The notes under the pieces: generated by a model
The model's database searches: none
What the model saw: the letters and a program-made list of their open reading frames with translations, nothing else
Told to the model about the DNA's origin: nothing
Position numbers and translations under genes: made by a program
Shown: in pieces, positions 48,055 through 58,667 of the stretch
Layout: the number at the start of each line of letters is the position of its first letter
Position numbering within the stretch: the first letter of the stretch is position 1
DNA from: Escherichia coli
Lineage (GTDB): Bacteria > Pseudomonadota > Gammaproteobacteria > Enterobacterales > Enterobacteriaceae
Assembly: GCF_003334815.1 (NCBI RefSeq)
Contig: NZ_QOWO01000001.1
Length of the DNA stretch: 64,000 bases
Reading direction: 5' to 3' (one strand)

Positions 48055-48351
48055 ATGTTCGAACAACGCGTAAATTCTGACGTACTGACCGTTTCTACCG
48101 TTAACTCTCAGGATCAGGTAACCCAAAAACCCCTGCGTGACTCGGTTAAACAGGCACTGAAGAACTATTTTGCTCAACTGAATGGTCAGGATGTGAATGA
48201 CCTCTATGAGCTGGTACTGGCTGAAGTAGAACAGCCCCTGTTGGACATGGTGATGCAATACACCCGTGGTAACCAGACCCGTGCTGCGCTGATGATGGGC
48301 ATCAACCGTGGTACGCTGCGTAAAAAATTGAAAAAATACGGCATGAACTAA
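48055..48351 (+). CDS. fis: Nucleoid-associated protein Fis
   Basis: ORF track 98 aa; exact Fis sequence ([15 protein letters not shown]...KKYGMN). Confidence 0.98.
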
Positions 48352-48363
48352 AGTCAAGCTGTA

Positions 48364-48373
48364 ACGGCATGAA
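48364..48373. repeat. Left copy of the 10-bp direct repeat ACGGCATGAA (candidate attL core)
   Basis: Exact match to 57684-57693; 13 bp after the fis stop. Confidence 0.55.
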
Positions 48374-48375
48374 AT

Positions 48376-48408
48376 TAAAGGGGCTATTTCAGCCCCTTTA
48401 CTTTTTGT
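48376..48408 (+). terminator. Rho-independent terminator serving fis; lies inside the island boundary
   Basis: aaaggggctatttcagcccctttactttttgtt, located between the left direct repeat and the tape-measure stop. Confidence 0.75.
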
Positions 48409-48428
48409 TGCAACCGTACTGACAACCC

Positions 48429-50702
48429 TTATGGTGTTTGCGCGCCATCTATCATCATGCTTCGCTGCCTTACTGCTTGTTGCTGTCGTAGTTGCTGTAT
48501 CACCTTCCGGGCTAATGCATCTTCATTCATACCAGGTTCTGCCTTCACGCTGATGTGGTACTGGTCGTTGCTATGCACCGTAGTGCCACCAGAGCGGTTG
48601 GCCAGTGCAGGTGACGGCAGGGCAGCACCAGAGGCAGTGGTTGCTGCTGGCTGCTGTACATCGTCGCGGAATGGTGCGGTAAAGAAATCTTTGGTTTTCT
48701 GCCACGCACCACCAGCAACATCAGACACGGCGTTTTTAAACTCCAGTGCCTTGTTGGTCAGGTTGCCAATGTTGTCAGAAACCCAAATGATCTTATCAAT
48801 CAGGAACGTGATCGGTGCGGTCACAAGCTCGATGCCAGCCGCCAGGGTCTTACCGAACGTCATCCCCATTTTACCGGCCTTATCCAGTTCCTCGCCGCTG
48901 TATTTGACCGGTTCGGTCAGTGACGTGAACCAGTTGAAAGCCGTCTTAACCGCAGCGCCCACGCCATCAATGACGGGCTTCAATGGCCCCATGCGCTCAT
49001 ACAGGCGATGCAGGGCATCGCTAAGCGGTTCCAGCCCGGATTTGATACCTTCACCCACGCCACCAAAAAAAGCCTTCACACCAGCCCAATGGCGGTAAAT
49101 CTGATAACCTGCCAGCGCCAGGCCAGCTACGGCAGCACCAACGCCAGTGGAAATGAACGCCGCACCGATGGCGCGCACGCCGGTAGCCACCGCAGGCAGG
49201 CCACGAGTGCTGGCCAGAACGGCGGATGCGTTCATGCGGGCAAACAGGCTGGACACGTTCAGCAATCCGCCTTTCAGGAACGTGAACGCAAAGCCAGCGG
49301 CGAACGTCGCCACACGCAGTGCCACCAGTGCACTGGAACCAATAACCACTGCTTTGGTCACGGTAGGGTATTCGCGCGCCAGTTCGGCAACCTTGCCGAT
49401 AACCGGGCCAACGGTAGCCAGAACGCCGTTGAATGCTGGCAGCAGCACTGTGCCGATCGTGACGCCCAGGTTAGACACACGGTTGTTGAAAATCTTAAGC
49501 TGCGCCGACGTTTTGGCGGTGGCTGCCTCATATTCAGCCTGCATAGAACCGGCATATTTGGTCTTGTCTTTGACCATATCCAGATTCTTTTGGTACGTAT
49601 CAAGCTGTGTCAGCATTGGTGCGATAGCGCCAATCGATTCCTTACCAAACAGTTGCGAAAGCGTTGCCGCCTGCATGTGTTTTGGCAGCTTGCTGATCTT
49701 GGACAGGATGACGCGGATTGTTTCATCGGCGTTCAGTTGCATTGATTTTGCAACCTGCTTGGATGTGAAGCCAAGCTGTTTAAACGCTTCACGCTGTGAC
49801 TTCGTGGCGGATGCGCCAGCGGTCAGGGATAGCAGCAGGTTTTTAATACCGGTGGCCGCAATCTCATTCTGCACGCCCATACCGCGCAGCGTTGCACCCA
49901 TCGCAGCGATAGAACCGGAAGCTGCACCAGCGACGCTGCCAAGTGGCCCGATGCGCTGCGTGATTTCCAGGATGTCTTTGGCTGATGCGGCGGTGTTGTT
50001 GCCCAGGTAGTTGATCTTGTCGGCCAGAACGTTCATCTGGTCCTGCGTCATCCCGAAGGCGGCGCGCATCTCTGCCATTGCCTGGCCTGCCTGGTCGGCG
50101 CTGACGTCAAAAGCCACACCCATTTTGATGGCCGATTCAGCAAACTTGGTTAGTTCGCTGGTGGCGATGCCTGATTGAGCACCAGCGGCAACAATCTTGC
50201 CGATTTCGTTGGCTGCCATCGGCATTTTGGTTGACATATCCTGGATAGCCTGGCCCATCTTAACCAGGCCGTCAGGGGTTTCGAAGTTGGCAACCTTGCG
50301 GATATCTGCCAGCGTATCTTCAAAATCCATAGCCTGTTTGATCGGTACAGCTACCGTTGCGCCAAGTGCGACAGTCCCCAGGATTCCTTCTTTGTAGCCT
50401 TGACGCTTCGCCAGGTTGCGTTCGCGGGCATCCTCCACGCGTTTCAGGCGTTCGGTGGCAGAACGAAGGCGTTCAACCTGCCCGACAACCGTTTGATAGC
50501 GGTCCTTCATGCGGGAGAATATCGCGCTATCCTGGCCATAACGCTTCATTGCTTCATTTAACTGGCGCTGTTCGCGCGACAGCTTAGAGATTGCGCTACC
50601 AATCTCGACGGTATTTTTCTTTACAGTTCCAAATGCACCACGAAGGCTGCCGGAAACGGCCCCACCAATCGTGATTGTTGCATTTAACTTCTTGTTGGCC
50701 AT
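48429..50702 (-). CDS. Phage tail tape measure protein (TP901-family core-like)
   Basis: ORF track 757 aa; N-terminal coiled coil, Ala/Gly-rich core (GNNTAASAKDILEITQRIGPLGSVAGAASGS...), hydrophobic C-terminal segments; called on recognised family features, not a search. Confidence 0.75.
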   Translation of the reverse strand: MANKKLNATITIGGAVSGSLRGAFGTVKKNTVEIGSAISKLSREQRQLNEAMKRYGQDSAIFSRMKDRYQTVVGQVERLRSATERLKRVEDARERNLAKRQGYKEGILGTVALGATVAVPIKQAMDFEDTLADIRKVANFETPDGLVKMGQAIQDMSTKMPMAANEIGKIVAAGAQSGIATSELTKFAESAIKMGVAFDVSADQAGQAMAEMRAAFGMTQDQMNVLADKINYLGNNTAASAKDILEITQRIGPLGSVAGAASGSIAAMGATLRGMGVQNEIAATGIKNLLLSLTAGASATKSQREAFKQLGFTSKQVAKSMQLNADETIRVILSKISKLPKHMQAATLSQLFGKESIGAIAPMLTQLDTYQKNLDMVKDKTKYAGSMQAEYEAATAKTSAQLKIFNNRVSNLGVTIGTVLLPAFNGVLATVGPVIGKVAELAREYPTVTKAVVIGSSALVALRVATFAAGFAFTFLKGGLLNVSSLFARMNASAVLASTRGLPAVATGVRAIGAAFISTGVGAAVAGLALAGYQIYRHWAGVKAFFGGVGEGIKSGLEPLSDALHRLYERMGPLKPVIDGVGAAVKTAFNWFTSLTEPVKYSGEELDKAGKMGMTFGKTLAAGIELVTAPITFLIDKIIWVSDNIGNLTNKALEFKNAVSDVAGGAWQKTKDFFTAPFRDDVQQPAATTASGAALPSPALANRSGGTTVHSNDQYHISVKAEPGMNEDALARKVIQQLRQQQAVRQRSMMIDGAQTP

Positions 50703-50723
50703 AATAATTGTGCTCTCAAGGAA

Positions 50724-50930
50724 TTAATTAAGTAAATTTTCTGCAAGGGTGTGTTCACCGATTGCCCGCAAGGCGGCAGCGGCCAGTTGCAGGGCGCATT
50801 CGGTGCGGTAGTCTCGCTGTTTCTGCATTTCCTCCGCTGTGTTGCACGCCAGAACTTTTGGCAGGACCATATCCACCAGTTCAGGCCAGGGGTTTGTTCC
50901 TTCCGGTTTTGTGTGAATACGGTCCAGCAT
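50724..50930 (-). CDS. Small hypothetical protein immediately upstream of the tape measure gene (possible tail assembly chaperone)
   Basis: ORF track 68 aa; same strand and tight spacing within the operon; no recognisable motif. Confidence 0.4.
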   Translation of the reverse strand: MLDRIHTKPEGTNPWPELVDMVLPKVLACNTAEEMQKQRDYRTECALQLAAAALRAIGEHTLAENLLN

Positions 50931-50939
50931 GGTGCCCCC

Positions 50940-51257
50940 TTATGCACTCCGTACCAGGATAGCGCCGCGCTTCACCGCCTGGCGTTTGGCCCGTTCACCG
51001 GAACTGATGCGGCTGGATGGTTGCCACTTCGTGCGTCCCAGGGCGGATGCGTGGCTTTCCGCTTCGTCACGCATGATGCGGCCCGCTTCATCGGTCATGT
51101 GTTCGAATGCGTTTAAACGGTTGCGAAGGCTTGCCAGCAGGTCGGCTGCTTCGTAGCTGATAGGGTTTTTCTCTGAAATGGTTTGGAAACGCTTTGTTTC
51201 GCTAAGGATCAAACGCGCTTCTTCTTTCATTGATTCGTACAGGTCATGTTTTTTCAT
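50940..51257 (-). CDS. Hypothetical protein (possible tail assembly chaperone); start uncertain
   Basis: ORF track 149 aa (50940..51389); preferred start at the internal MKKHDLYESMKEE (ATG at 51257, ~104 aa) because the upstream extension is low-complexity. Confidence 0.4.
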   Translation of the reverse strand: MKKHDLYESMKEEARLILSETKRFQTISEKNPISYEAADLLASLRNRLNAFEHMTDEAGRIMRDEAESHASALGRTKWQPSSRISSGERAKRQAVKRGAILVRSA

Positions 51258-51471
51258 AGTATTGGCCGCTAACAATAGTTGTTGATGATTAAGTGAGTGC
51301 GCGCTTTTAGGTGACAGGTGCGGCGCAACCGGTGTGGAATTAGTGGTGGTTTTGACCGTCCAGGATGACCACCAACCTGGTTCCAGCATCCATCGTCTGA
51401 GGAACGATGAAGGTTAAATTTGGCCGGTTATTTGGGGCACAGGGAACCGGTGAAACCTGTATTCTTGGCCA

Positions 51472-51636
51472 TTATTTGCCGTTCAGCCCGCTACTCAGAA
51501 ACTTTTCAATCACCTGGCTGCGTGAAGGGCGGATGCCTGTTCTGCGTTCCAGTTTGGCTTGCTCTCTTTCGACCTGGCGCACCAGGTCAGGGGCGAGGCG
51601 TACCGTTACGTGCTGGCGTGTTTCTTGTCGTTTCAT
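51472..51636 (-). CDS. Ribbon-helix-helix (CopG/Arc-like) DNA-binding protein, 54 aa; absent from the ORF track (below length cutoff)
   Basis: Hand-translated: MKRQETRQHVTVRLAPDLVRQVEREQAKLERRTGIRPSRSQVIEKFLSSGLNGK; beta-strand then two helices typical of RHH; starts 3 nt after the upstream gene stop. Confidence 0.55.
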   Translation of the reverse strand: MKRQETRQHVTVRLAPDLVRQVEREQAKLERRTGIRPSRSQVIEKFLSSGLNGK

Positions 51637-51639
51637 GGC

Positions 51640-51960
51640 TTAGTACCTGTTCATCCAGCTTTCGCGCTTCTGTTTCGGGCGCTGCTCGCGGTAGTGACTG
51701 CGCACCAGGGAAGCGAGGTAATTCACGGCGCGTTCAATCTGGTACTGCTTAAGCTCCGGGTAAGCCTTGCGAATCCATTTTTCAGCAGCGTCATCGCTGT
51801 AGATGAATCCTGACCAGCCAACCGGCTGCACTACGATGCGCGGTGTGTTTTCATCACCGTGGCGCACATACATGGCCACACCTTCGATAGCTGCCAGGAT
51901 TTCACCCGGCAGGGCAGCGCGCTCCGCTGCCGCTTTTTTGCTGCCCCACCACATGATCAA
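51640..51960 (-). CDS. Hypothetical protein, ~105 aa, translationally coupled to the downstream RHH gene
   Basis: ORF track 106 aa; TTG or ATG start overlapping the stop of the upstream 294-aa gene. Confidence 0.45.
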   Translation of the reverse strand: MIMWWGSKKAAAERAALPGEILAAIEGVAMYVRHGDENTPRIVVQPVGWSGFIYSDDAAEKWIRKAYPELKQYQIERAVNYLASLVRSHYREQRPKQKRESWMNRY

Positions 51961-52841
51961 GCCTTCCAGAACATAGTTGAGTCAGGCACCAGTGCGGATG
52001 CGTTCACCCACACAACGATTTCAACGGCACCATTCAGCACGCGGCGGGCGGTGACGCGGATTTCATCATCCAGGGCAACGGCTGCATTGCCGAAAGCGCC
52101 AATGATTGTGCTGGAAGTCTGGCCGCTGATTTCAGCGCGTACACCGTAGGCACGCAGAACGCCGTCTTGCAGTTCCAGGCCGGTGCAATCACCGCCAACA
52201 ATGGCTTTAACTTCATCAAAGCGCAGGTTTTTGGCTGCAATCTTCTGCGCCACTGCGGTGAATGACGGGCTGGCCAGCGTTTCCGCTGCGGTTTCCAGGT
52301 GGTTCAGCAGTACGAAATCAGCCAGGTCAGCAATTCCGCGTTCAATGGCGGTGTTGACCACTTCCAGCGTGGTATCGTCTGCGAAGTCGTGTTTCATCTG
52401 CTTGCGGCTAAGGGTGTAGCCCACGCCGTAAGCCGGTGCGTTGTTGTGGTTGAACGCTGATACCAGGTAAGGCAGGCCGCTCATGGTGATTTCTTCGCCG
52501 TCAGCCACTTTGGCGAACGCACCAGGGCGAACGACAACGAAGCGGTCAGCCACTTCGCGGCCAGTCGTTGCGCCGGTGTTGCCAGTCGGAGGCGTGGTCA
52601 TCGGGCCAGGGATGCGGATGATTTCAGCGCCTGCCTGTGCCACCAGTGAACGTTCAGCCAGAACAGCGTTGAAGGTGGTCTGCTTGCCGCCTTTCGGGGT
52701 CAGCACGTCATTCATGGACAGGTAGCGAACTGCTGCAGGTTCCACAGGGATGAATTGAGTAATGTCACCGTTGCCATCAGTGCGAATGTGGCCGCCCTGG
52801 TGGTTCAACGCGTCGTTGATAAGTTGAGATAAAACGTTCAT
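51957..52841 (-). CDS. Phage structural-like protein, 294 aa (major tail- or capsid-like; unassigned)
   Basis: ORF track 322 aa; start moved to MNVLSQLINDAL (ATG at 52841), which has a GGAG RBS 8 nt upstream; first gene of the minus-strand operon ending in the tape measure. Confidence 0.4.
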   Translation of the reverse strand: MNVLSQLINDALNHQGGHIRTDGNGDITQFIPVEPAAVRYLSMNDVLTPKGGKQTTFNAVLAERSLVAQAGAEIIRIPGPMTTPPTGNTGATTGREVADRFVVVRPGAFAKVADGEEITMSGLPYLVSAFNHNNAPAYGVGYTLSRKQMKHDFADDTTLEVVNTAIERGIADLADFVLLNHLETAAETLASPSFTAVAQKIAAKNLRFDEVKAIVGGDCTGLELQDGVLRAYGVRAEISGQTSSTIIGAFGNAAVALDDEIRVTARRVLNGAVEIVVWVNASALVPDSTMFWKA

Positions 52842-53229
52842 TAAAAATGCTCCGGTTGTTGTGCAATAAATCGTCTGGAATGACTTAAAGATATACAGTA
52901 ACCAGGCCGAACACAATAGCCACAATGTGAGCTTTTTAATGTAAAATCAGTAACTTATAACCATGAATACTTGCAAATAACCAGGCATAATCCGGCGTAA
53001 TCGATATTTACACATCTTTACAATTCAGCGTGTGTAAAACGTGTTCGCTTTATTTTGCAATCTCGCAAGTATGGTTCCAGTGCTTTGATAGGATTCACAT
53101 AAATGATTGATTTACTTGACGTAATCATAAAGTGAGTTTTGTAGGGGCACGCACAACGCGAATTACGCGGGACCAATGCCCCCGCAGGCTGTACCCCCCT
53201 CGGAAGTACCTTGACTTTTTTGGCAGCAG

Positions 53230-53540
53230 ATGGCGATGACACCTAATGTCACCATGACGGCGTTATGTTGGAAAGGTGTCATTAGGTGTCATAGCGGGAA
53301 ACACGCTGATTATTAAAGAAAAATACAAACAAGATAATGTAATGAATGACACCTGTGACACCATGACACCCATTTCTATAAAGTATAACGACCACTGTTA
53401 CATTATCACAGTGGTCGTTATTTTCTTTAAAAATGCTGTCATAGGTGTCATAGGTGTCATTAGTAATGTCGCAACCCTTGCGGGTTATGGCTTGAGAACA
53501 ATGACACCTGCCATGACACCTTATAAATTAATGACACCTA
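53230..53540. repeat. Iteron array: at least 10 perfect copies of the octamer ATGACACC/GGTGTCAT in both orientations, with a central 9-bp-arm palindrome; probable replication origin
   Basis: Perfect copies start at 53236, 53275, 53285, 53346, 53363, 53444, 53453, 53501, 53513 and 53531; variants at 53246, 53355 and 53435; palindrome gaccactgt-N9-acagtggtc at 53390-53416; located 3' of the primase gene. Confidence 0.7.
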
Positions 53541-53607
53541 GGCGTCACTTTGAAAATAAAAAAAGCCCCGGCATTCGCCAGGGTAATGGGCAACAACTGT
53601 TGTGATG

Positions 53608-53832
53608 TTATGATCGGATGAACGGCAAGATTTCAGCGGAATCCACTACCCTTATGCGGTAGCTGCATAGCAGGTTTTCACCCAACTTGGCCAGTTCCTG
53701 CTGCACCTCTGGCAGCCTATTGCGAGCATGGTCTACCGCTTCCTGTTCAGTGGCGAAACCCTCCATAATTTCGGTTTCGGTGTAGGTGCCGTGTTCCGGG
53801 TCAAAAGCAATGATATATGCGCGATAACTCAT
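53608..53832 (-). CDS. Small hypothetical protein between the primase gene and the iteron origin
   Basis: ORF track 74 aa; GAGG RBS 6 nt upstream of the ATG. Confidence 0.5.
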   Translation of the reverse strand: MSYRAYIIAFDPEHGTYTETEIMEGFATEQEAVDHARNRLPEVQQELAKLGENLLCSYRIRVVDSAEILPFIRS

Positions 53833-53841
53833 AGTATTACC

Positions 53842-55530
53842 TCAAAACTGGTGGTTAGGCCCATCAAAATAGCGATGGTCTTGCTGTCCAAAAACTTTCG
53901 GTGGCATTAGGTAAAAACGCCCTTTACTTGTTCTACGTGCATCCCTTCCTGTCAGTTTTCGCAGAATGTTACCGCACTGCGTTGCCTGGGATTTTGTTGG
54001 CCGATCCTGCCCAATAGACAACAGAACATCCGTTGCAGTCATTTCTATATATGCAGCCAGGCGATCACTGTTCCAATCAAAACGCGCCAATATCATTTCT
54101 TCAATCGGGTCAGTTTGCCCGTGCTGTTCGTTCACGACTTCCAGCATGGCTTCTTCATCACGGTCCAGCCACCAGCGTTCACCTGCTTCAAACCAGGAAA
54201 GAACTTCGGCCCATAATTGTTGTGTGTCTATGCCATGCTCGTAGTTAACGGCAGTTACAGGAATGGTCCACCAGCGCACGTTCCCGGTGTCATCCGCCAG
54301 GAAGTGTTTCGGGTTCACTGACGCAAAAAACACGGTGCGGCGCTGGTACTTCGATTCAAGCCGGTCATAAGGGCGGCGCAGGTCATCACGGTCCTGGCTG
54401 ATAAATGCTTTGAGCTTGGCAATATCCGCCTTGCGAAACGTCGCATCCAATTCGCCTAGCTCAACAAGCCAGTGACTAATTGCGCTGGCCACGCTGTCTT
54501 TATTGCCGGGGTCAATAGTTGCTCCCACCTTAACCAGGTTGCGATTGTCAGGGGGCAGAAGCGCTTTAAACCATGCTGTTTTACCCAGTGACTGCTCGCC
54601 CTGGAAAACCAGCACGCCTTTGGACCAGAAACCCGCTTCTAAGTAAGCAGCCGCCACGGCAGACAGCAACCAACGACGCACCAGCATGGCCAGCAGATCG
54701 CGACTGTAGTCATCTGGCGTGCTGATAGTATTCAGCAGGTCTGCAAATCGGCTTCGTCCATCCCATTCACGTTGATTGATGAAATCCCTGACAGGATTAT
54801 AAGTATTGCGCACAGCGATAGTTTTGATATGACCTTCAATATTACTCATTGGTAACCGGTTCAGTGCGGCGAGGCTTAAAATTTCACTCACAGCGCAGTT
54901 ATCGCGAGCATCTGAACCGCCACTAACGCCAGGTACTAAAACCTCAACGTCCTTGCTAATCTCATTATATTTTGCAGAAATGCTGTAGTTATCTAATAGA
55001 CGTTCAACATTAGGGCGTGTGTTTAAAGGCTGGCCATTGCTTCCAATATTTGGCCAGGTTGTCATTAATACAGGAGCCATATCGTGAATGTCTTTTACAG
55101 TTGCTGCGGCGGTTGCTCGTTCTTCTTTGCGCAGCATGCCCACCAGGCTTTCACCGCGTAGGGCGGCGTCTCTAAGCCTGTCCATGTTCCATTTTTCCGG
55201 TTCACGGTCAGTAATGCCTTTAAATAAACGGGCTTCCTTAACTCCAGCCACTGCCAGCTTGTCAGCAATAGTGCTGATTTGAAGTTGCTTAATATCACCA
55301 GCCAGATATACCCGCGCAGACCGGCGACCATCGTCGATAATTCGTAGATTATCTAAATCATCCAGTTGTCTTGGCCCAAGGTAGACAGGAGGAGTAGTGT
55401 CACCGGCAACTTGTTTACCCATTCCTTCTTCCCAGCCCTTGGCATGGCTCCAAGCGTCAGAACCGGCAAAAATAATTGCTTCCGTAAAAGGGTCTTTAGG
55501 TAATAGCTTAACGTTAGGCGCGTTTCTCAT
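53842..55530 (-). CDS. Satellite-type primase / replication initiator with P-loop NTPase domain
   Basis: ORF track 562 aa; Walker A motif GEQSLGKTAW; sits between alpA and the iterons as in P4 alpha / PICI pri-rep arrangements. Confidence 0.65.
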   Translation of the reverse strand: MRNAPNVKLLPKDPFTEAIIFAGSDAWSHAKGWEEGMGKQVAGDTTPPVYLGPRQLDDLDNLRIIDDGRRSARVYLAGDIKQLQISTIADKLAVAGVKEARLFKGITDREPEKWNMDRLRDAALRGESLVGMLRKEERATAAATVKDIHDMAPVLMTTWPNIGSNGQPLNTRPNVERLLDNYSISAKYNEISKDVEVLVPGVSGGSDARDNCAVSEILSLAALNRLPMSNIEGHIKTIAVRNTYNPVRDFINQREWDGRSRFADLLNTISTPDDYSRDLLAMLVRRWLLSAVAAAYLEAGFWSKGVLVFQGEQSLGKTAWFKALLPPDNRNLVKVGATIDPGNKDSVASAISHWLVELGELDATFRKADIAKLKAFISQDRDDLRRPYDRLESKYQRRTVFFASVNPKHFLADDTGNVRWWTIPVTAVNYEHGIDTQQLWAEVLSWFEAGERWWLDRDEEAMLEVVNEQHGQTDPIEEMILARFDWNSDRLAAYIEMTATDVLLSIGQDRPTKSQATQCGNILRKLTGRDARRTSKGRFYLMPPKVFGQQDHRYFDGPNHQF

Positions 55531-55795
55531 ATCGCACCCCGCGTTTTAACTCCAGATACATCGCCCATGATTCAGAATCGCTGATGCGAAACGGCACCAG
55601 GCTATCAGCCATAGCGGCGTGACGTGAAACAATAGTCCACGGGCGGTTTACACCTTCGCGAATGCATGCTTGCAACAATAATTGTGCTGCCGCCATACGC
55701 TGGGCGGTAAGTTCGCCAACGGTTAACTGGCGCTGTGGGTTACGCAACAGGCTGTTATAGCGACTGATAGCCTGATTTACGGTTGTTTTCTTCAT
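55514..55795 (-). CDS. Small hypothetical protein directly upstream of the primase gene, overlapping its start
   Basis: ORF track 93 aa; GAGGTGG RBS; 17-nt overlap with the primase start. Confidence 0.5.
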   Translation of the reverse strand: MKKTTVNQAISRYNSLLRNPQRQLTVGELTAQRMAAAQLLLQACIREGVNRPWTIVSRHAAMADSLVPFRISDSESWAMYLELKRGVRYEKRA

Positions 55796-55803
55796 AAGCC
55801 ACC

Positions 55804-55983
55804 TCAGCGCTGTACTGGCTGGCGGCTTTCAAGCCACGCCATAACATCTTTGCGCCGCCAGGCCACGCGTTTTGGCCCTAATTTTATGCAATTAGGAAAC
55901 GTGCCAGCCTGGATATAGCGCCAGATAGTCATGCGGGATAATGTTGTTAGTGTTGTGACTTGCTTAGCAGTCAGTAATTCCAT
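55804..55983 (-). CDS. alpA: AlpA-family phage transcriptional regulator (MerR-like HTH), 59 aa; absent from the ORF track (below length cutoff)
   Basis: Hand-translated: MELLTAKQVTTLTTLSRMTIWRYIQAGTFPNCIKLGPKRVAWRRKDVMAWLESRQPVQR; classic AlpA signature; GAGGG RBS. Confidence 0.7.
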   Translation of the reverse strand: MELLTAKQVTTLTTLSRMTIWRYIQAGTFPNCIKLGPKRVAWRRKDVMAWLESRQPVQR

Positions 55984-56277
55984 CTTACGGCCCTCAAAAC
56001 ATGGCCGGTGGATATGTGGTCTGTAATGATTTATGATTATGTTGCGTTAACAAAGAACGCGACCATTACAGCCTTCACCGGCTTTTTGGTATTAAGGGGT
56101 TCGGTTTTCTGTTTGGCGACGTGAACCGATCCCCGCCTTATTCAAGCCCTCAGTTCTGCTGGGGGCTTTTTATTACTACATGACAATAATACTCAAATTG
56201 TATCAGCAGTAAATACCCTTTAAATTCATAAACTTAACTGCAAATAACGCTACATAACTCTATATAATCATCAATTT

Positions 56278-57513
56278 TTAATTATCTGATTTTAAAAGGT
56301 TTATTTTTTCTAAATATTTTATCCATTTGTCCAAGGCTAACCGTTTTTCCGGGATGTACTGGCTACGGTTGTACACCGCCATCACTCCTGGCATTGAGTG
56401 GCCCAGCAACTGTTCAACCACATGCGGGGCTATCCCCAAGTTATTTAGACTGGTGGCAAAAGTGCGGCGCAGGTCATGCAACGTCCACGGCGTTGAATGC
56501 TCTAATCGTCTGTATAAGATACGCCCCCACTGGCTGACAGCTTCGGGTTTCTTCATTTCACCAAGCAGCATTCCGCTATCAAGATGATTTTGGCGTAGCT
56601 GTAAAATAAATGGCTGTATAGATTCAGGCACGGGTCTGATGATTTTCTCCCCACCCTTGCTATGTTCTCGCGGAACTGTCCAAATCCATTCTTTCACGTT
56701 CCATTCCGACCATGTCGAAAGACGAATTTCTTGTGTTCTTGCACCAAACACTATTAGCAATTTTAAAAGCGCGGTGTAGTAAGGTAGAAACGCATATTCG
56801 CTTTTTAGCGCATTCCAAAGGCCACTAAGTTCTTCAGAAGTTAAAACACGATCACGTTTTGCCTGCTTTCTTCCAACATCAGTAACTTTGATATCCTCCA
56901 GCGCATCACTGTAAACATCGTGCAGCCTGCGGTTGTGAATCAACGCCTGCTTGCAGTTACCTAATATGTAGCCGCTTGCTACCGGCGCGACTTTTTTGAT
57001 TCTGCTAAATGTCTCCATCCATCTTGCTTTAGAGCACTGTTCAAGTGGCAATTCGCCGATGAAAGGATAAATATGTCTTTCGAATTGGCGTCTATGCCTT
57101 TCAAAGTTGACCCGGTTTTCCGCCGCGTACTCATTAATCCAGCGTTCCAATGCTTCCCTGATAGTGACAGGTTTCATGGTTTTTGCTGACTCTTGGTCAA
57201 ACTGGTCTTTAGGATCTAGATTATGAGCAAGCCACCGTTTGCATTGGTCGCGTTTCACCCTCGCCTCAGCAAGAGATAAGGCAGGATACTTGCCCAGCAC
57301 TAGCGTCAAAGTATTGGCGCTTTTATGCTTATTCTTATAACGGAACAACCATTGGATGTTATTGGCCGGTCTCTTCTCGCCATCAAGGATTTTGCGCCTT
57401 GATGGTGTAACGCGAACAGAAAGGCTGCCACCGTCAGCAACATCAAAAGGTTTTTCGATGACTTTGCGGGTTAACGCACGCAATTGAACATCTGAGAGTT
57501 TATTTTCGGCCAT
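56278..57513 (-). CDS. int: Tyrosine recombinase, P4-type integrase family
   Basis: ORF track 435 aa; start taken at MAENKLSDVQLRAL (ATG at 57513, 411 aa); P4-integrase-like N-terminus (DGGSLSVRVTPSRRK) and C-terminal catalytic motifs (HDLRRTF...LGHS...VYNR...Y). Confidence 0.85.
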   Translation of the reverse strand: MAENKLSDVQLRALTRKVIEKPFDVADGGSLSVRVTPSRRKILDGEKRPANNIQWLFRYKNKHKSANTLTLVLGKYPALSLAEARVKRDQCKRWLAHNLDPKDQFDQESAKTMKPVTIREALERWINEYAAENRVNFERHRRQFERHIYPFIGELPLEQCSKARWMETFSRIKKVAPVASGYILGNCKQALIHNRRLHDVYSDALEDIKVTDVGRKQAKRDRVLTSEELSGLWNALKSEYAFLPYYTALLKLLIVFGARTQEIRLSTWSEWNVKEWIWTVPREHSKGGEKIIRPVPESIQPFILQLRQNHLDSGMLLGEMKKPEAVSQWGRILYRRLEHSTPWTLHDLRRTFATSLNNLGIAPHVVEQLLGHSMPGVMAVYNRSQYIPEKRLALDKWIKYLEKINLLKSDN

Positions 57514-57683
57514 AGAGTTAATGACAACCTTTTTGACAACTGTATGCAGGGAGTAACTGATAACTGATGATACAATGCGAGCCAATAAAAAATAAATATC
57601 TCTTTCCGCATCAATTATTTATGATGAATACAAATTATCTAGAGTGATAATAAATTACGTATAATGACTCTGTATTTTACAAT

Positions 57684-57693
57684 ACGGCATGAA
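57684..57693. repeat. Right copy of the 10-bp direct repeat ACGGCATGAA (candidate attR core)
   Basis: Exact match to 48364-48373; ~170 bp beyond the integrase start. Confidence 0.55.
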
Positions 57694-57721
57694 CTAATTC
57701 AGGTTAGCTAAATGCTTGATT

Positions 57722-57760: not shown

Positions 57761-57782
57761 AGGTGTCACAAAGGGAGTGACC

Positions 57783-58667
57783 ATGAGAACAGGATGTGAA
57801 CCGACCCGGTTTGGTAATGAAGCTAAGACCATTATTCACGGTGATGCGCTTGCCGAACTTAAAAAGATCCCCGCCGAAAGTGTCGATCTGATCTTTGCCG
57901 ACCCACCATATAACATCGGTAAAAATTTTGATGGTCTGATCGAAGCCTGGAAAGAAGATCTGTTTATCGACTGGCTGTTTGAAGTGATTGCAGAGTGCCA
58001 CCGCGTTCTGAAAAAGCAGGGCAGCATGTACATCATGAACAGTACGGAAAACATGCCCTTTATCGATCTCCAGTGCCGCAAGCTTTTTACCATCAAAAGT
58101 CGCATCGTCTGGTCATATGACAGTTCTGGAGTGCAGGCGAAAAAACACTACGGCTCCATGTACGAACCCATCCTGATGATGGTGAAAGACGCAAAGAACT
58201 ACACATTCAACGGTGATGCTATTCTGGTAGAAGCCAAAACCGGATCGCAGCGCGCGTTGATCGATTATCGCAAAAATCCTCCACAGCCTTACAATCATCA
58301 AAAAGTACCGGGTAACGTTTGGGATTTTCCGCGCGTGCGTTATTTGATGGATGAATATGAAAACCACCCGACGCAAAAACCGGAAGCCTTACTGAAACGC
58401 ATTATTCTCGCCTCTTCCAACCCAGGCGATATCGTTCTCGACCCGTTTGCTGGTAGCTTTACTACCGGTGCCGTAGCCATCGCCAGCGGACGAAAATTCA
58501 TTGGTATTGAGATCAACAGCGAGTACATCAAAATGGGGCTTCGACGGCTGGATGTCGCGTCGCATTACTCTGCGGAAGAACTGGCGAAAGTGAAAAAAAG
58601 AAAGACCGGCAACCTGTCAAAACGAAGCCGGTTAAGCGAAGTTGACCCCGATCTCATTACAAAGTAA
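57783..58667 (+). CDS. yhdJ: DNA adenine methyltransferase YhdJ
   Basis: ORF track 296 aa (GTG at 57777); ATG at 57783 taken as start; DPPY motif (FADPPYNIG). Confidence 0.93.
   Translation: MRTGCEPTRFGNEAKTIIHGDALAELKKIPAESVDLIFADPPYNIGKNFDGLIEAWKEDLFIDWLFEVIAECHRVLKKQGSMYIMNSTENMPFIDLQCRKLFTIKSRIVWSYDSSGVQAKKHYGSMYEPILMMVKDAKNYTFNGDAILVEAKTGSQRALIDYRKNPPQPYNHQKVPGNVWDFPRVRYLMDEYENHPTQKPEALLKRIILASSNPGDIVLDPFAGSFTTGAVAIASGRKFIGIEINSEYIKMGLRRLDVASHYSAEELAKVKKRKTGNLSKRSRLSEVDPDLITK

What the first reader, a model, noticed from the sequence alone, without database searches (positions are those of the whole stretch)
48429..52841. Tail tape measure module on a satellite backbone that lacks capsid, terminase, baseplate and lysis genes
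The minus-strand operon 52841 to 48429 ends with a 757-aa protein that has tape-measure hallmarks, preceded by small chaperone-sized ORFs and a 294-aa structural-like protein. The island has no terminase, portal, capsid, tail tube/sheath, baseplate or lysis genes that I can recognise. A tape measure sets tail length, so a satellite carrying only this gene could re-size or redirect helper tail assembly, a tail counterpart of capsid-size redirection. The less exciting alternative is a mosaic acquisition with no function, but the intact att ends make simple deletion decay less likely.
Basis: inference. Interest (0 to 1): 0.8.

Follow-up and report, generated by a model that had tools for sequence, protein, structure and literature searches.

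The report
Mini phage satellite with own capsid and tape measure
This is an intact 9.3-kb phage satellite inserted at the end of the E. coli fis gene that copies the DNA-packaging (cos) site of Jilinvirus phages and, unusually, encodes both its own capsid protein and its own tail tape measure, giving a tractable E. coli system for asking why satellites replace a helper's tape measure.

Summary
Window 48429-50702 (-) encodes a genuine 757-aa tape measure protein (TMP) at the end of a minus-strand operon. The operon lies in a precisely inserted 9,346-bp island flanked by 17-bp att repeats at the fis stop codon.

The "294-aa structural-like protein" is an HK97-fold major capsid protein, so the island is not capsid-less.

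The island also carries three further features:
- an iteron origin;
- a VapE primase related to the helper's primase;
- a 73-nt copy (97-99% identical) of the cos site of Jilinvirus myophages (HeidiAbel, ECOO78, ECO1230-10, ep3). These are the same phages whose TMPs are the closest matches (59% identity, full length).

The capsid-to-TMP module is under purifying selection. It is conserved in 66 of 5,426 complete E. coli genomes, in Enterobacter and Pseudomonas islands, and in integrase-less circular plasmids of about 9 kb.

Most likely it is a satellite of Jilinvirus phages. It would build small capsids, be packaged by the helper terminase, and place its own TMP in helper-built tails. The TMP is only 24-28 aa shorter than the helper's, so tail re-sizing is minor.

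Satellite-encoded TMPs are already known (Vibrio PLEs, mycobacterial EPIPs, some cf-PICIs). This is a new variant of a known kind.

The parts
48335..48351 (.). attL: 17-bp core AATACGGCATGAACTAA overlapping the last codons and stop codon of fis
   Evidence: Exact direct repeat with 57681-57697. The reconstructed empty site is 100% identical to other E. coli genomes.
48429..50702 (-). Tail tape measure protein, 757 aa
   Evidence: phrog_28 E=2.7e-129; PF10145; TIGR01760. 58-60% identical over full length to Jilinvirus TMPs. dN/dS 0.18-0.36.
50724..50930 (-). p68, a small helical protein immediately upstream of the TMP gene with its own Shine-Dalgarno site. It co-occurs with the TMP. Candidate TMP partner or chaperone (inferred).
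   Evidence: Conserved next to the TMP in E. coli, Enterobacter and Pseudomonas satellites, with no clear homologue in the TMP-less Serratia relative. No Pfam, PHROG or PADLOC hit. No link to the helper gpE-like protein.
50940..51257 (-). p105, a helical protein with a basic C-terminus. RefSeq calls it 149 aa, to 51389. Possibly a scaffolding protein (speculative).
   Evidence: Conserved in TMP-bearing relatives and in the TMP-less Serratia relative (41%). No family match.
51472..51636 (-). p54, which looks like a ribbon-helix-helix DNA-binding protein
   Evidence: Judged from the sequence pattern. Conserved in E. coli, plasmid and Pseudomonas relatives. Weak YlcI/YnfO hit, E=0.025.
51640..51954 (-). 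p104, a family-core protein always found next to the capsid gene; function unknown
51957..52841 (-). HK97-fold major capsid protein, 294 aa, without delta domain or protease
53148..53220 (-). cos site copied from Jilinvirus helpers, containing the 13-nt putative cohesive end GGGGCATTGGTCC
   Evidence: 97-99% identical to the Rz-terS intergenic region of HeidiAbel, ECO1230-10 and ep3. Only 12 of 50,697 phage records match. The physical ends of the ECOO78 and Arya records fall inside it. Conserved at the same position in relatives.
53233..53540 (.). Iteron-type replication origin: 10 exact copies of GGTGTCAT in both orientations around an AT-rich core
   Evidence: 10 of the window's 15 exact matches lie here, against 1.9 expected in the whole window.
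53566..53583 (-). Terminator-like hairpin ending the early (replication) operon
53608..53832 (-). p74, a small protein downstream of the primase gene
   Evidence: Conserved in plasmid forms. No family match.
53842..55530 (-). VapE-type primase/helicase, 562 aa
   Evidence: phrog_2249 E=1e-82. Matches the helper primase at E about 1e-177, with a 744-bp stretch 76% identical at the nucleotide level.
55514..55795 (-). p93, unknown early protein
55804..55983 (-). AlpA-family excisionase/regulator, 59 aa
   Evidence: phrog_66 E=3e-12. RefSeq annotates it as a helix-turn-helix regulator.
56278..57513 (-). Tyrosine integrase, 411 aa
   Evidence: phrog_1 E=5e-53. RefSeq annotation.
57681..57697 (.). 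attR: second copy of the 17-bp core

Best explanation
The island (window 48352-57697) is a 9.35-kb integrative phage satellite whose helpers are Jilinvirus/Iiscvirinae myophages. These are 41-44-kb phages with a lambda-like head and a P2-like tail.

Proposed cycle (inferred unless marked otherwise):
1. It sits at an attB overlapping the fis stop codon. When a helper infects, it excises (int, alpA) and replicates from its iteron origin using its own VapE primase-helicase.
2. Its late operon makes an HK97-fold capsid protein, plus p104, p54 and p105. These assemble small shells on the helper portal. A 9.0-9.6-kb genome is the size expected for T=3 or T=4 (my estimate).
3. The helper terminase cuts and packages satellite DNA because the satellite carries a near-identical copy of the helper cos site.
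4. The satellite TMP, probably with p68, replaces the helper TMP inside tails otherwise built from helper tube, sheath, baseplate and fibres. This gives chimeric tails of almost unchanged length.

Shown here: gene identities, the cos copy, the iteron-rich ori-like region, the att sites, conservation and purifying selection. Inferred: helper dependence, small-capsid formation, and TMP incorporation with its benefit. The benefit could be escape from TMP-targeted exclusion or defence, or interference with helper tail assembly.
For: - TMP identity.
- The closest TMPs are full-length Jilinvirus TMPs at 58-60% identity. The termini are conserved and the middle is mosaic: residues 150-300 are closer to ECOO78 (70-86% per 50-residue window) than HeidiAbel is to ECOO78 (56-80%). 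This implies gene exchange with helpers.
- The 73-nt cos copy is 97-99% identical to exactly that phage group. Record termini of ECOO78 (13-nt terminal repeat) and Arya fall inside it.
- The primase is homologous to the helper primase.
- The 294-aa protein has the HK97 capsid fold.
- Precise insertion with intact att. Iteron ori.
- The module is present in 66 of 5,426 complete E. coli genomes, including a closed 8,933-bp plasmid, and in circular 9.06-9.09-kb contigs.
- The same architecture occurs in Enterobacter and Pseudomonas. The Pseudomonas island also has a gpX baseplate-hub gene, and its intergenic region matches the Rz-terS spacer of a Pseudomonas phage that is also among the more distant TMP matches (40% identity).
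- A Salmonella relative is physically inserted in the capsid gene of a Jilinvirus-like prophage.
- dN/dS is 0.14-0.36 for TMP, MCP and p104.
- Precedent: PLE TMPs are incorporated into chimeric tails (PMC12987554).
Against: - No experiment of any kind was available.
- No portal, protease, head-tail connector or terminase was found. The satellite capsid protein shows no sequence similarity to the helper's, so co-assembly with the helper portal is an assumption.
- No Jilinvirus terL-portal DNA was found in any of 5,426 complete E. coli genomes. The helper must therefore be an incoming phage, and co-occurrence cannot be shown.
- TMP-less relatives exist (Serratia L019, L022), so the TMP is not essential to the wider family.
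- The four small late proteins remain unidentified. No tail assembly chaperone or frameshift signal was found.
Confidence: 0.7

Rival explanations
1. The TMP is primarily an anti-helper or anti-phage weapon. As a divergent decoy, it enters or stalls helper tail assembly (dominant-negative interference) and so protects the host population. It is not needed for the satellite's own particles.
For: - Conserved termini with a divergent, mosaic middle fit a protein that still docks onto helper tail parts.
- PLE11 combines its own TMP with Rta-mediated blocking of the helper TMP, and tail-assembly interference is a known PICI strategy (PMC12987554, PMC11364771).
- TMP-less relatives show that the family can do without it.
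Against: - There are no PADLOC hits.
- The TMP sits at the end of the capsid operon and its length tracks the helper's, which suggests functional tails rather than dead ends.
- In PLEs, the satellite TMP is needed for efficient transduction (PMC12987554).
Confidence: 0.15
2. The 294-aa HK97-fold protein does not form capsids alone. Like SaPIbov5 Ccm, it co-assembles with the helper capsid protein to force small shells. On this reading the element is a capsid-redirecting satellite rather than a capsid-forming one.
For: - The island lacks portal, protease and connectors, which true capsid-forming PICIs encode (PMC10085698).
Against: - There is no detectable sequence similarity to the helper capsid protein.
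- Some relatives carry their own fused prohead protease, which is typical of a self-sufficient capsid protein.
- The Salmonella relative disrupts the helper's capsid gene. While it is integrated, helper capsid protein would be missing.
Confidence: 0.2
3. The island is a decayed prophage remnant or a mosaic with a non-functional acquired TMP gene.
For: It lacks most virion genes, and no helper prophage is present in any complete E. coli genome.
Against: - The size is constant at 8.9-9.6 kb and the gene order is conserved across E. coli, Enterobacter, Pseudomonas and plasmid forms.
- The att sites are intact and the insertion is precise.
- It retains a cos site and an ori.
- All late genes are under purifying selection.
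Confidence: 0.03

Closest known systems
PLEs of Vibrio cholerae (satellites of phage ICP1)
   Same: A satellite that encodes its own TMP next to other small tail-assembly genes. In PLEs the satellite TMP replaces the helper's in chimeric tails (PMC12987554). The helper is a myophage met by infection rather than a resident prophage. A Pseudomonas relative of this island also carries a baseplate-hub (gpX) gene, as PLEs carry BhuB.
   Different: - The backbones appear unrelated and the host clades differ.
- PLEs steal the helper capsid protein and remodel it with TcaP, whereas this island has its own HK97 capsid protein.
- The PLE TMP is only about 20% identical to ICP1's and 95 aa shorter (10 nm). 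Here the TMP is 59% identical to the helper's and 24-28 aa shorter.
- No tail assembly chaperone could be identified here.
Capsid-forming PICIs (cf-PICIs, e.g. EcCIEDL933, EcCI2)
   Different: cf-PICIs are defined by 11 core genes including terS, terL, portal, protease, head-tail adaptor, connector and HNH, and tail genes are 'forbidden' in the detection model (PMC10085698). None of those packaging or connector genes is found here. At 9.3 kb the island is also too small to hold them.
P4-like satellites of P2
   Same: It is small and has an integrase plus a primase-helicase. It carries a copy of the helper cos site so that the helper terminase packages it. Relatives exist both integrated and as plasmids. 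The helper has a P2-type contractile tail.
   Different: No PHROG match to any capsid-size, decoration or transactivator function (Sid/Psu/Delta-type) was found, and no Rfam RNA. P4 reshapes P2 capsid protein with an external scaffold. This island instead brings its own capsid protein and a TMP.
EPIPs of Mycolicibacterium (bioRxiv 10.64898/2025.12.02.691453)
   Same: Satellites of about 11 kb reported to encode both a major capsid protein and a TMP while lacking other tail genes and lysis genes.
   Different: EPIPs have a serine integrase, terS, head-tail adaptor and stopper, and a siphophage helper. Their tails are reported to be much longer than the helper's.

Membership tests
Phage tail tape measure protein | Sequence match to TMP profiles (Pfam PF10145, TIGR01760, PHROG TMP families) | tested here: met
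   phrog_28 E=2.7e-129; PF10145 E=3.5e-39; TIGR01760 at 239 bits against a cut-off of 28.8.
Phage tail tape measure protein | Collinear full-length similarity to the TMP of a characterised tailed phage | tested here: met
   100% coverage and 58-60% identity to the TMPs of HeidiAbel, ECOO78 and PT1.
HK97-fold major capsid protein | HK97 fold (A and P domains, E-loop, spine helix) | tested here: met
cf-PICI | Own terL and terS | tested here: not met
   No terminase match in any island protein. A sibling variant at the same site has a terS only.
cf-PICI | Own portal, prohead protease, head-tail adaptor and connector, HNH | tested here: not met
   No matches. No ORF is long enough to be a portal apart from the primase, the TMP and the integrase.
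cf-PICI | int - alpA - primase left arm and own capsid protein | tested here: met
cf-PICI / PICI (SatelliteFinder models) | Absence of tail genes (a forbidden component) | tested here: not met
   The TMP gene lies inside the element. Model definition from PMC10085698.
PICI | terS homologue or known capsid-redirection gene for hijacking packaging | tested here: not met
   None in the window's island. Packaging is instead explained by the cos copy.
P4-like satellite | Copy of the helper cos site | tested here: met
   The 73-nt element is 97-99% identical to Jilinvirus cos regions.
P4-like satellite | sid / psu / delta hijacking genes | tested here: inconclusive
   PHROG and NCBIfam scans returned no capsid-size, decoration or transactivator match for any island protein. 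The small late proteins are unidentified, and no dedicated Sid/Psu/Delta comparison was run.
PLE-type chimeric-tail module | TMP plus tail assembly chaperone (and baseplate hub) encoded by the satellite | tested here: inconclusive
   The TMP is present. p68 and p105 show no chaperone signature, no frameshift site and no similarity to the helper gpE-like protein. A gpX hub gene occurs only in the Pseudomonas relative.
PLE-type chimeric-tail module | Satellite TMP physically incorporated into transducing particles | not testable with these tools
   Needs purified particles with mass spectrometry or western blot.

The most novel reading that the evidence does not exclude
This may be an undescribed family of minimal (about 9 kb) satellites of Iiscvirinae myophages. 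On this reading they build the smallest tailed-particle capsids known (T=3-sized) from their own scaffold-less HK97 protein on a stolen portal, are packaged through cos mimicry, and swap in their own TMP. The TMP has a recombining, hypervariable N-terminal half. The swap would let their DNA enter cells that exclude or sense the helper's TMP. Relatives go as far as integrating into, and so silencing, the helper's capsid gene.
Probability: 0.3. Interest if true: 0.8.

Novelty: new variant of a known kind. Interest (0 to 1): 0.62.

Why it matters
Why satellites encode their own TMP is an open question, raised only in 2025-2026 by work on Vibrio PLEs and mycobacterial EPIPs. This island offers an E. 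coli system for it.

- The candidate helper HeidiAbel (Bas97) is in the public BASEL collection and grows on K-12 with restored O16 antigen (PMC11990801).
- The satellite is 9.3 kb with only six late genes.
- Natural comparison material exists: TMP-less, terS-plus and plasmid variants.

It also shows that current satellite finders, which forbid tail genes and need sequence-detectable capsid genes, will miss such elements. About 1% of complete E. coli genomes carry one, annotated only as 'tape measure protein plus hypothetical proteins'. If the capsids are T=3, they would be the smallest isometric capsids of any tailed particle.

Tried and rejected
- Sequence searches on the 294-aa protein found nothing: Pfam, PHROGs, NCBIfam, a PDB sequence profile and tblastn against 50,697 phages. 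Only structure prediction identified it.
- p68 and p105 were tested as tail assembly chaperones. There were no Pfam hits and no hhalign similarity to the helper gpE-like protein. There is no slippery site at the p105/p68 junction, and p68 has its own ribosome-binding site. This does not disprove the chaperone idea; it leaves it unsupported.
- Defence cargo: no PADLOC hit for any island protein.
- Regulatory RNAs: no Rfam hit.
- Search for a resident helper prophage: no Jilinvirus terL-portal DNA in any complete E. coli genome.
- A genome-contig scan with capsid-protein patterns found no relatives among the species representatives. The broader alignment A1 was too divergent to make patterns. 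One paper look-up timed out.
- The 129-aa last gene of the Serratia relative is not a TMP fragment.
- The prophage-remnant reading was rejected on conservation, selection and intact att, cos and ori.


Full report
**Context.** The window is E. coli chromosome. The 12 kb around the finding matches RefSeq genomes at up to 99.6% identity. The region lies between fis (48055-48351, +) and yhdJ (57777-58667, +). RefSeq annotates it as an integrase, an AlpA-like regulator, a VapE protein, eight hypothetical proteins and a 'phage tail tape measure protein'.

**Observation check.**
- The 757-aa product of 48429-50702 (-) is a true TMP: phrog_28 E=2.7e-129, PF10145 E=3.5e-39, TIGR01760 E=5e-71.
- The island is bounded by an exact 17-bp direct repeat, AATACGGCATGAACTAA, at 48335-48351 (the end of fis, stop codon included) and 57681-57697.
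- A sequence built by removing the island and one repeat copy matches other E. coli genomes at 100% in one piece. 5,309 of 5,426 complete genomes have the site uninterrupted.
- The insertion is therefore precise: 9,346 bp with intact att ends.

**The 'structural-like' protein is a capsid protein.**
- The 294-aa protein (51957-52841, -) has no Pfam, PHROG, NCBIfam or PDB sequence match and no tblastn hit in 50,697 phage records.
- Its homologues include 463-465-aa proteins in which it is fused behind an HK97 prohead protease domain (PF04586), and one that a source names 'major capsid protein'.
- An AlphaFold2 model built on 29 homologues (pLDDT 77, pTM 0.75) gave 242 PDB hits at E<=1e-3 with Foldseek. 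The top 50 listed are all HK97-fold capsid or encapsulin shell proteins or engineered cages.
- The island is therefore not capsid-less. A profile search of 1.84 billion representative proteins found 274 clusters of this capsid family, a minority of them protease fusions.

**Backbone.** In gene order on the minus strand:
- integrase (56278-57513);
- alpA (55804-55983);
- p93;
- VapE primase-helicase (53842-55530);
- p74;
- a terminator-like hairpin (53583-53566);
- an origin-like region in which 10 of the window's 15 exact GGTGTCAT copies lie within 303 bp, against 1.9 expected in the whole window;
- a 73-nt cos element (see below);
- the late operon: capsid protein, p104, p54, p105, p68, TMP.

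**Who is the helper?** Three independent links point to Jilinvirus (Iiscvirinae) myophages.
1. *TMP.* The closest phage TMPs are those of ECOO78, PT1, HeidiAbel (Bas97), ECO1230-10 and ep3. They cover 100% of the length at 58-60% identity.
2. *Primase.* The VapE gene matches the primase of these phages (phmmer E about 1e-177), with a 744-bp stretch at 76% nucleotide identity.
3. *cos site.* Window 53148-53220 (-) is 97-99% identical to the non-coding spacer between the lysis genes and terS of HeidiAbel, ECO1230-10 and ep3.
   - Only 12 of 50,697 phage records match it at all. They belong to the same phage group as the best TMP matches.
   - The linear ECOO78 record carries the 13-nt sequence GGGGCATTGGTCC at both ends, and the Arya record starts 4 nt upstream of it. 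This is what is expected of a cohesive-end site.
   - The satellite contains that 13-mer exactly.

These phages have a lambda-type terminase and portal, a fused protease-scaffold-capsid gene and a P2-type tail. They are described as small myoviruses that grow lytically although some keep lysogeny genes (PMC11990801).

No Jilinvirus terL-portal DNA is present in any of the 5,426 complete E. coli genomes. A helper would therefore have to arrive by infection.

**Conservation.**
- The capsid-to-TMP module occurs in 66 of 5,426 complete E. coli genomes. One of these is a closed circular 8,933-bp plasmid, pM121-3, which has no integrase.
- Contigs of 9,092-9,166 bp from several samples are circularly permuted and have terminal overlaps equal to the assembly k-mer. 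They carry the same module plus a different primase and no integrase.
- An Enterobacter island at the fis site has the same order and a 694-aa TMP. The Enterobacter Jilinvirus Arya has a 695-aa TMP.
- Pseudomonas islands (capsid protein 39% identical) keep int-alpA-VapE-capsid-small genes-TMP and add a gpX baseplate-hub gene (phrog_46, E=7e-19).
- The Pseudomonas intergenic region weakly matches the Rz-terS spacer of Pseudomonas phage Persinger, the only phage hit.
- A Serratia island at fis, and a more distant element, have the capsid module but no TMP.
- p68 is found with the TMP and not clearly without it.
- dN/dS is 0.18-0.36 for the TMP, 0.24-0.27 for the capsid protein and 0.14-0.23 for p104.

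Together these results exclude a decaying remnant.

**The TMP itself.**
- Aligned with helper TMPs, it is collinear.
- The N-terminus, the C-terminal segment (FLIDKIIWVSDNIG...WQKTKDFF) and the C-terminal VRQRSMM motif are conserved.
- It has a 21-aa deletion and is 24-28 aa shorter overall than HeidiAbel's and ECOO78's.
- The middle is mosaic. Residues 150-300 are closer to ECOO78 than HeidiAbel is to ECOO78.
- Compared with the plasmid form, the N-terminal half is 20-36% identical across residues 100-450 and the C-terminal half is 93-100% identical.
- This suggests repeated recombination in a protein that must still dock onto helper tail parts.
- At the usual roughly 1.5 A per residue (established knowledge), the predicted tail shortening is about 4 nm, roughly one tube ring. 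Tail re-sizing is thus at most minor.

**Mechanism proposed.** See the best explanation. It combines three known strategies:
- cos mimicry with helper terminase packaging, as in P4;
- own small capsids, as in cf-PICIs, but using the helper portal;
- TMP replacement in helper-built tails, as shown for PLEs, where the satellite TMP is found in particles and is needed for efficient transduction (PMC12987554).

A sibling variant at the same site carries a terS (phrog_57, E=5e-27), and its cos right half is diverged. This fits a packaging-specificity logic.

**Comparison with the known.**
- Satellite-encoded TMPs were reported in PLEs (Nature 2026, PMC12987554) and in mycobacterial EPIPs (bioRxiv 10.64898/2025.12.02.691453). 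They were also noted in some cf-PICIs (PMC12987554, Extended Data Fig. 10).
- This island fails the cf-PICI definition: no terL, terS, portal, protease, adaptor, connector or HNH, and it has a tail gene (PMC10085698).
- It lacks the PICI terS. No Sid-, Psu- or Delta-type function was detected, though that was not tested with dedicated comparisons.
- I found no paper that mentions its proteins.
- I file it as a new variant of a known kind.

**Unresolved.**
- The roles of p104, p54, p105 and p68 are unknown.
- It is unknown whether the capsid protein assembles alone or with helper capsid protein.
- The selective benefit of the TMP is unknown.

Noticed in passing
L004 (Salmonella GCA_018535225.1) about 4672 and 13838; also L003: A relative of the satellite (int, AAA_25 replicase, protease-capsid fusion, 155-aa protein, 547-aa coiled-coil protein) is inserted inside the fused protease-scaffold-capsid gene of a Jilinvirus-like prophage. 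It splits the gene at about residue 450 and is flanked by a 16-bp repeat, ATCCCCAAACAAACAG. The satellite therefore interrupts its presumed helper's capsid gene while integrated.
   Followed up: partly
L018 (plasmid pM121-3, NZ_CP083588.1) and L008-L011: Integrase-less circular forms of 8.9-9.1 kb carry the same capsid-to-TMP module and cos site with a different primase. One is a closed plasmid in a complete E. coli genome. The family thus has both integrated and plasmid lifestyles.
   Followed up: partly
L012-L014, L017 (fis site of other E. coli, e.g. NZ_CP173573.1): A sibling variant has two extra genes between p54 and p105. One is a small terminase subunit (phrog_57, E=5e-27). The right half of its cos element is diverged from the helper type. 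In L017 an IS1 also disrupts the primase gene.
   Followed up: partly
L019 (Serratia CP006250.1, fis site): The Serratia member has the capsid, p104, p54 and p105 genes but no TMP or p68. It carries a SocA_Panacea-domain gene (toxin-antitoxin-type cargo) after the primase.
   Followed up: partly
window 53276-53605 (+): RefSeq annotates a 109-aa hypothetical protein (WP_112793409.1) in near-identical genomes. It lies entirely over the iteron/AT-rich origin region, and its repeated 'MTP' peptides mirror the iterons. It is probably not a gene.
   Followed up: partly
window 50940-51389 (-): RefSeq calls this gene 149 aa. Gene calls in relatives start at the internal ATG, giving 105 aa (50940-51257). 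The upstream 44 codons are nevertheless open and similar in the plasmid form.
   Followed up: no
fis-yhdJ site across E. coli genomes: About 117 of 5,426 genomes lack an uninterrupted fis-yhdJ junction, but only 66 carry this capsid-TMP module. Other elements probably use the same attachment site.
   Followed up: no
window 48429-50702 compared with L018 2971-5262: The TMPs of the island and the plasmid form are 93-100% identical in the C-terminal half (alignment columns 500-700) but only 20-36% identical across residues 100-450. This is a sharp recombination boundary inside the gene.
   Followed up: partly
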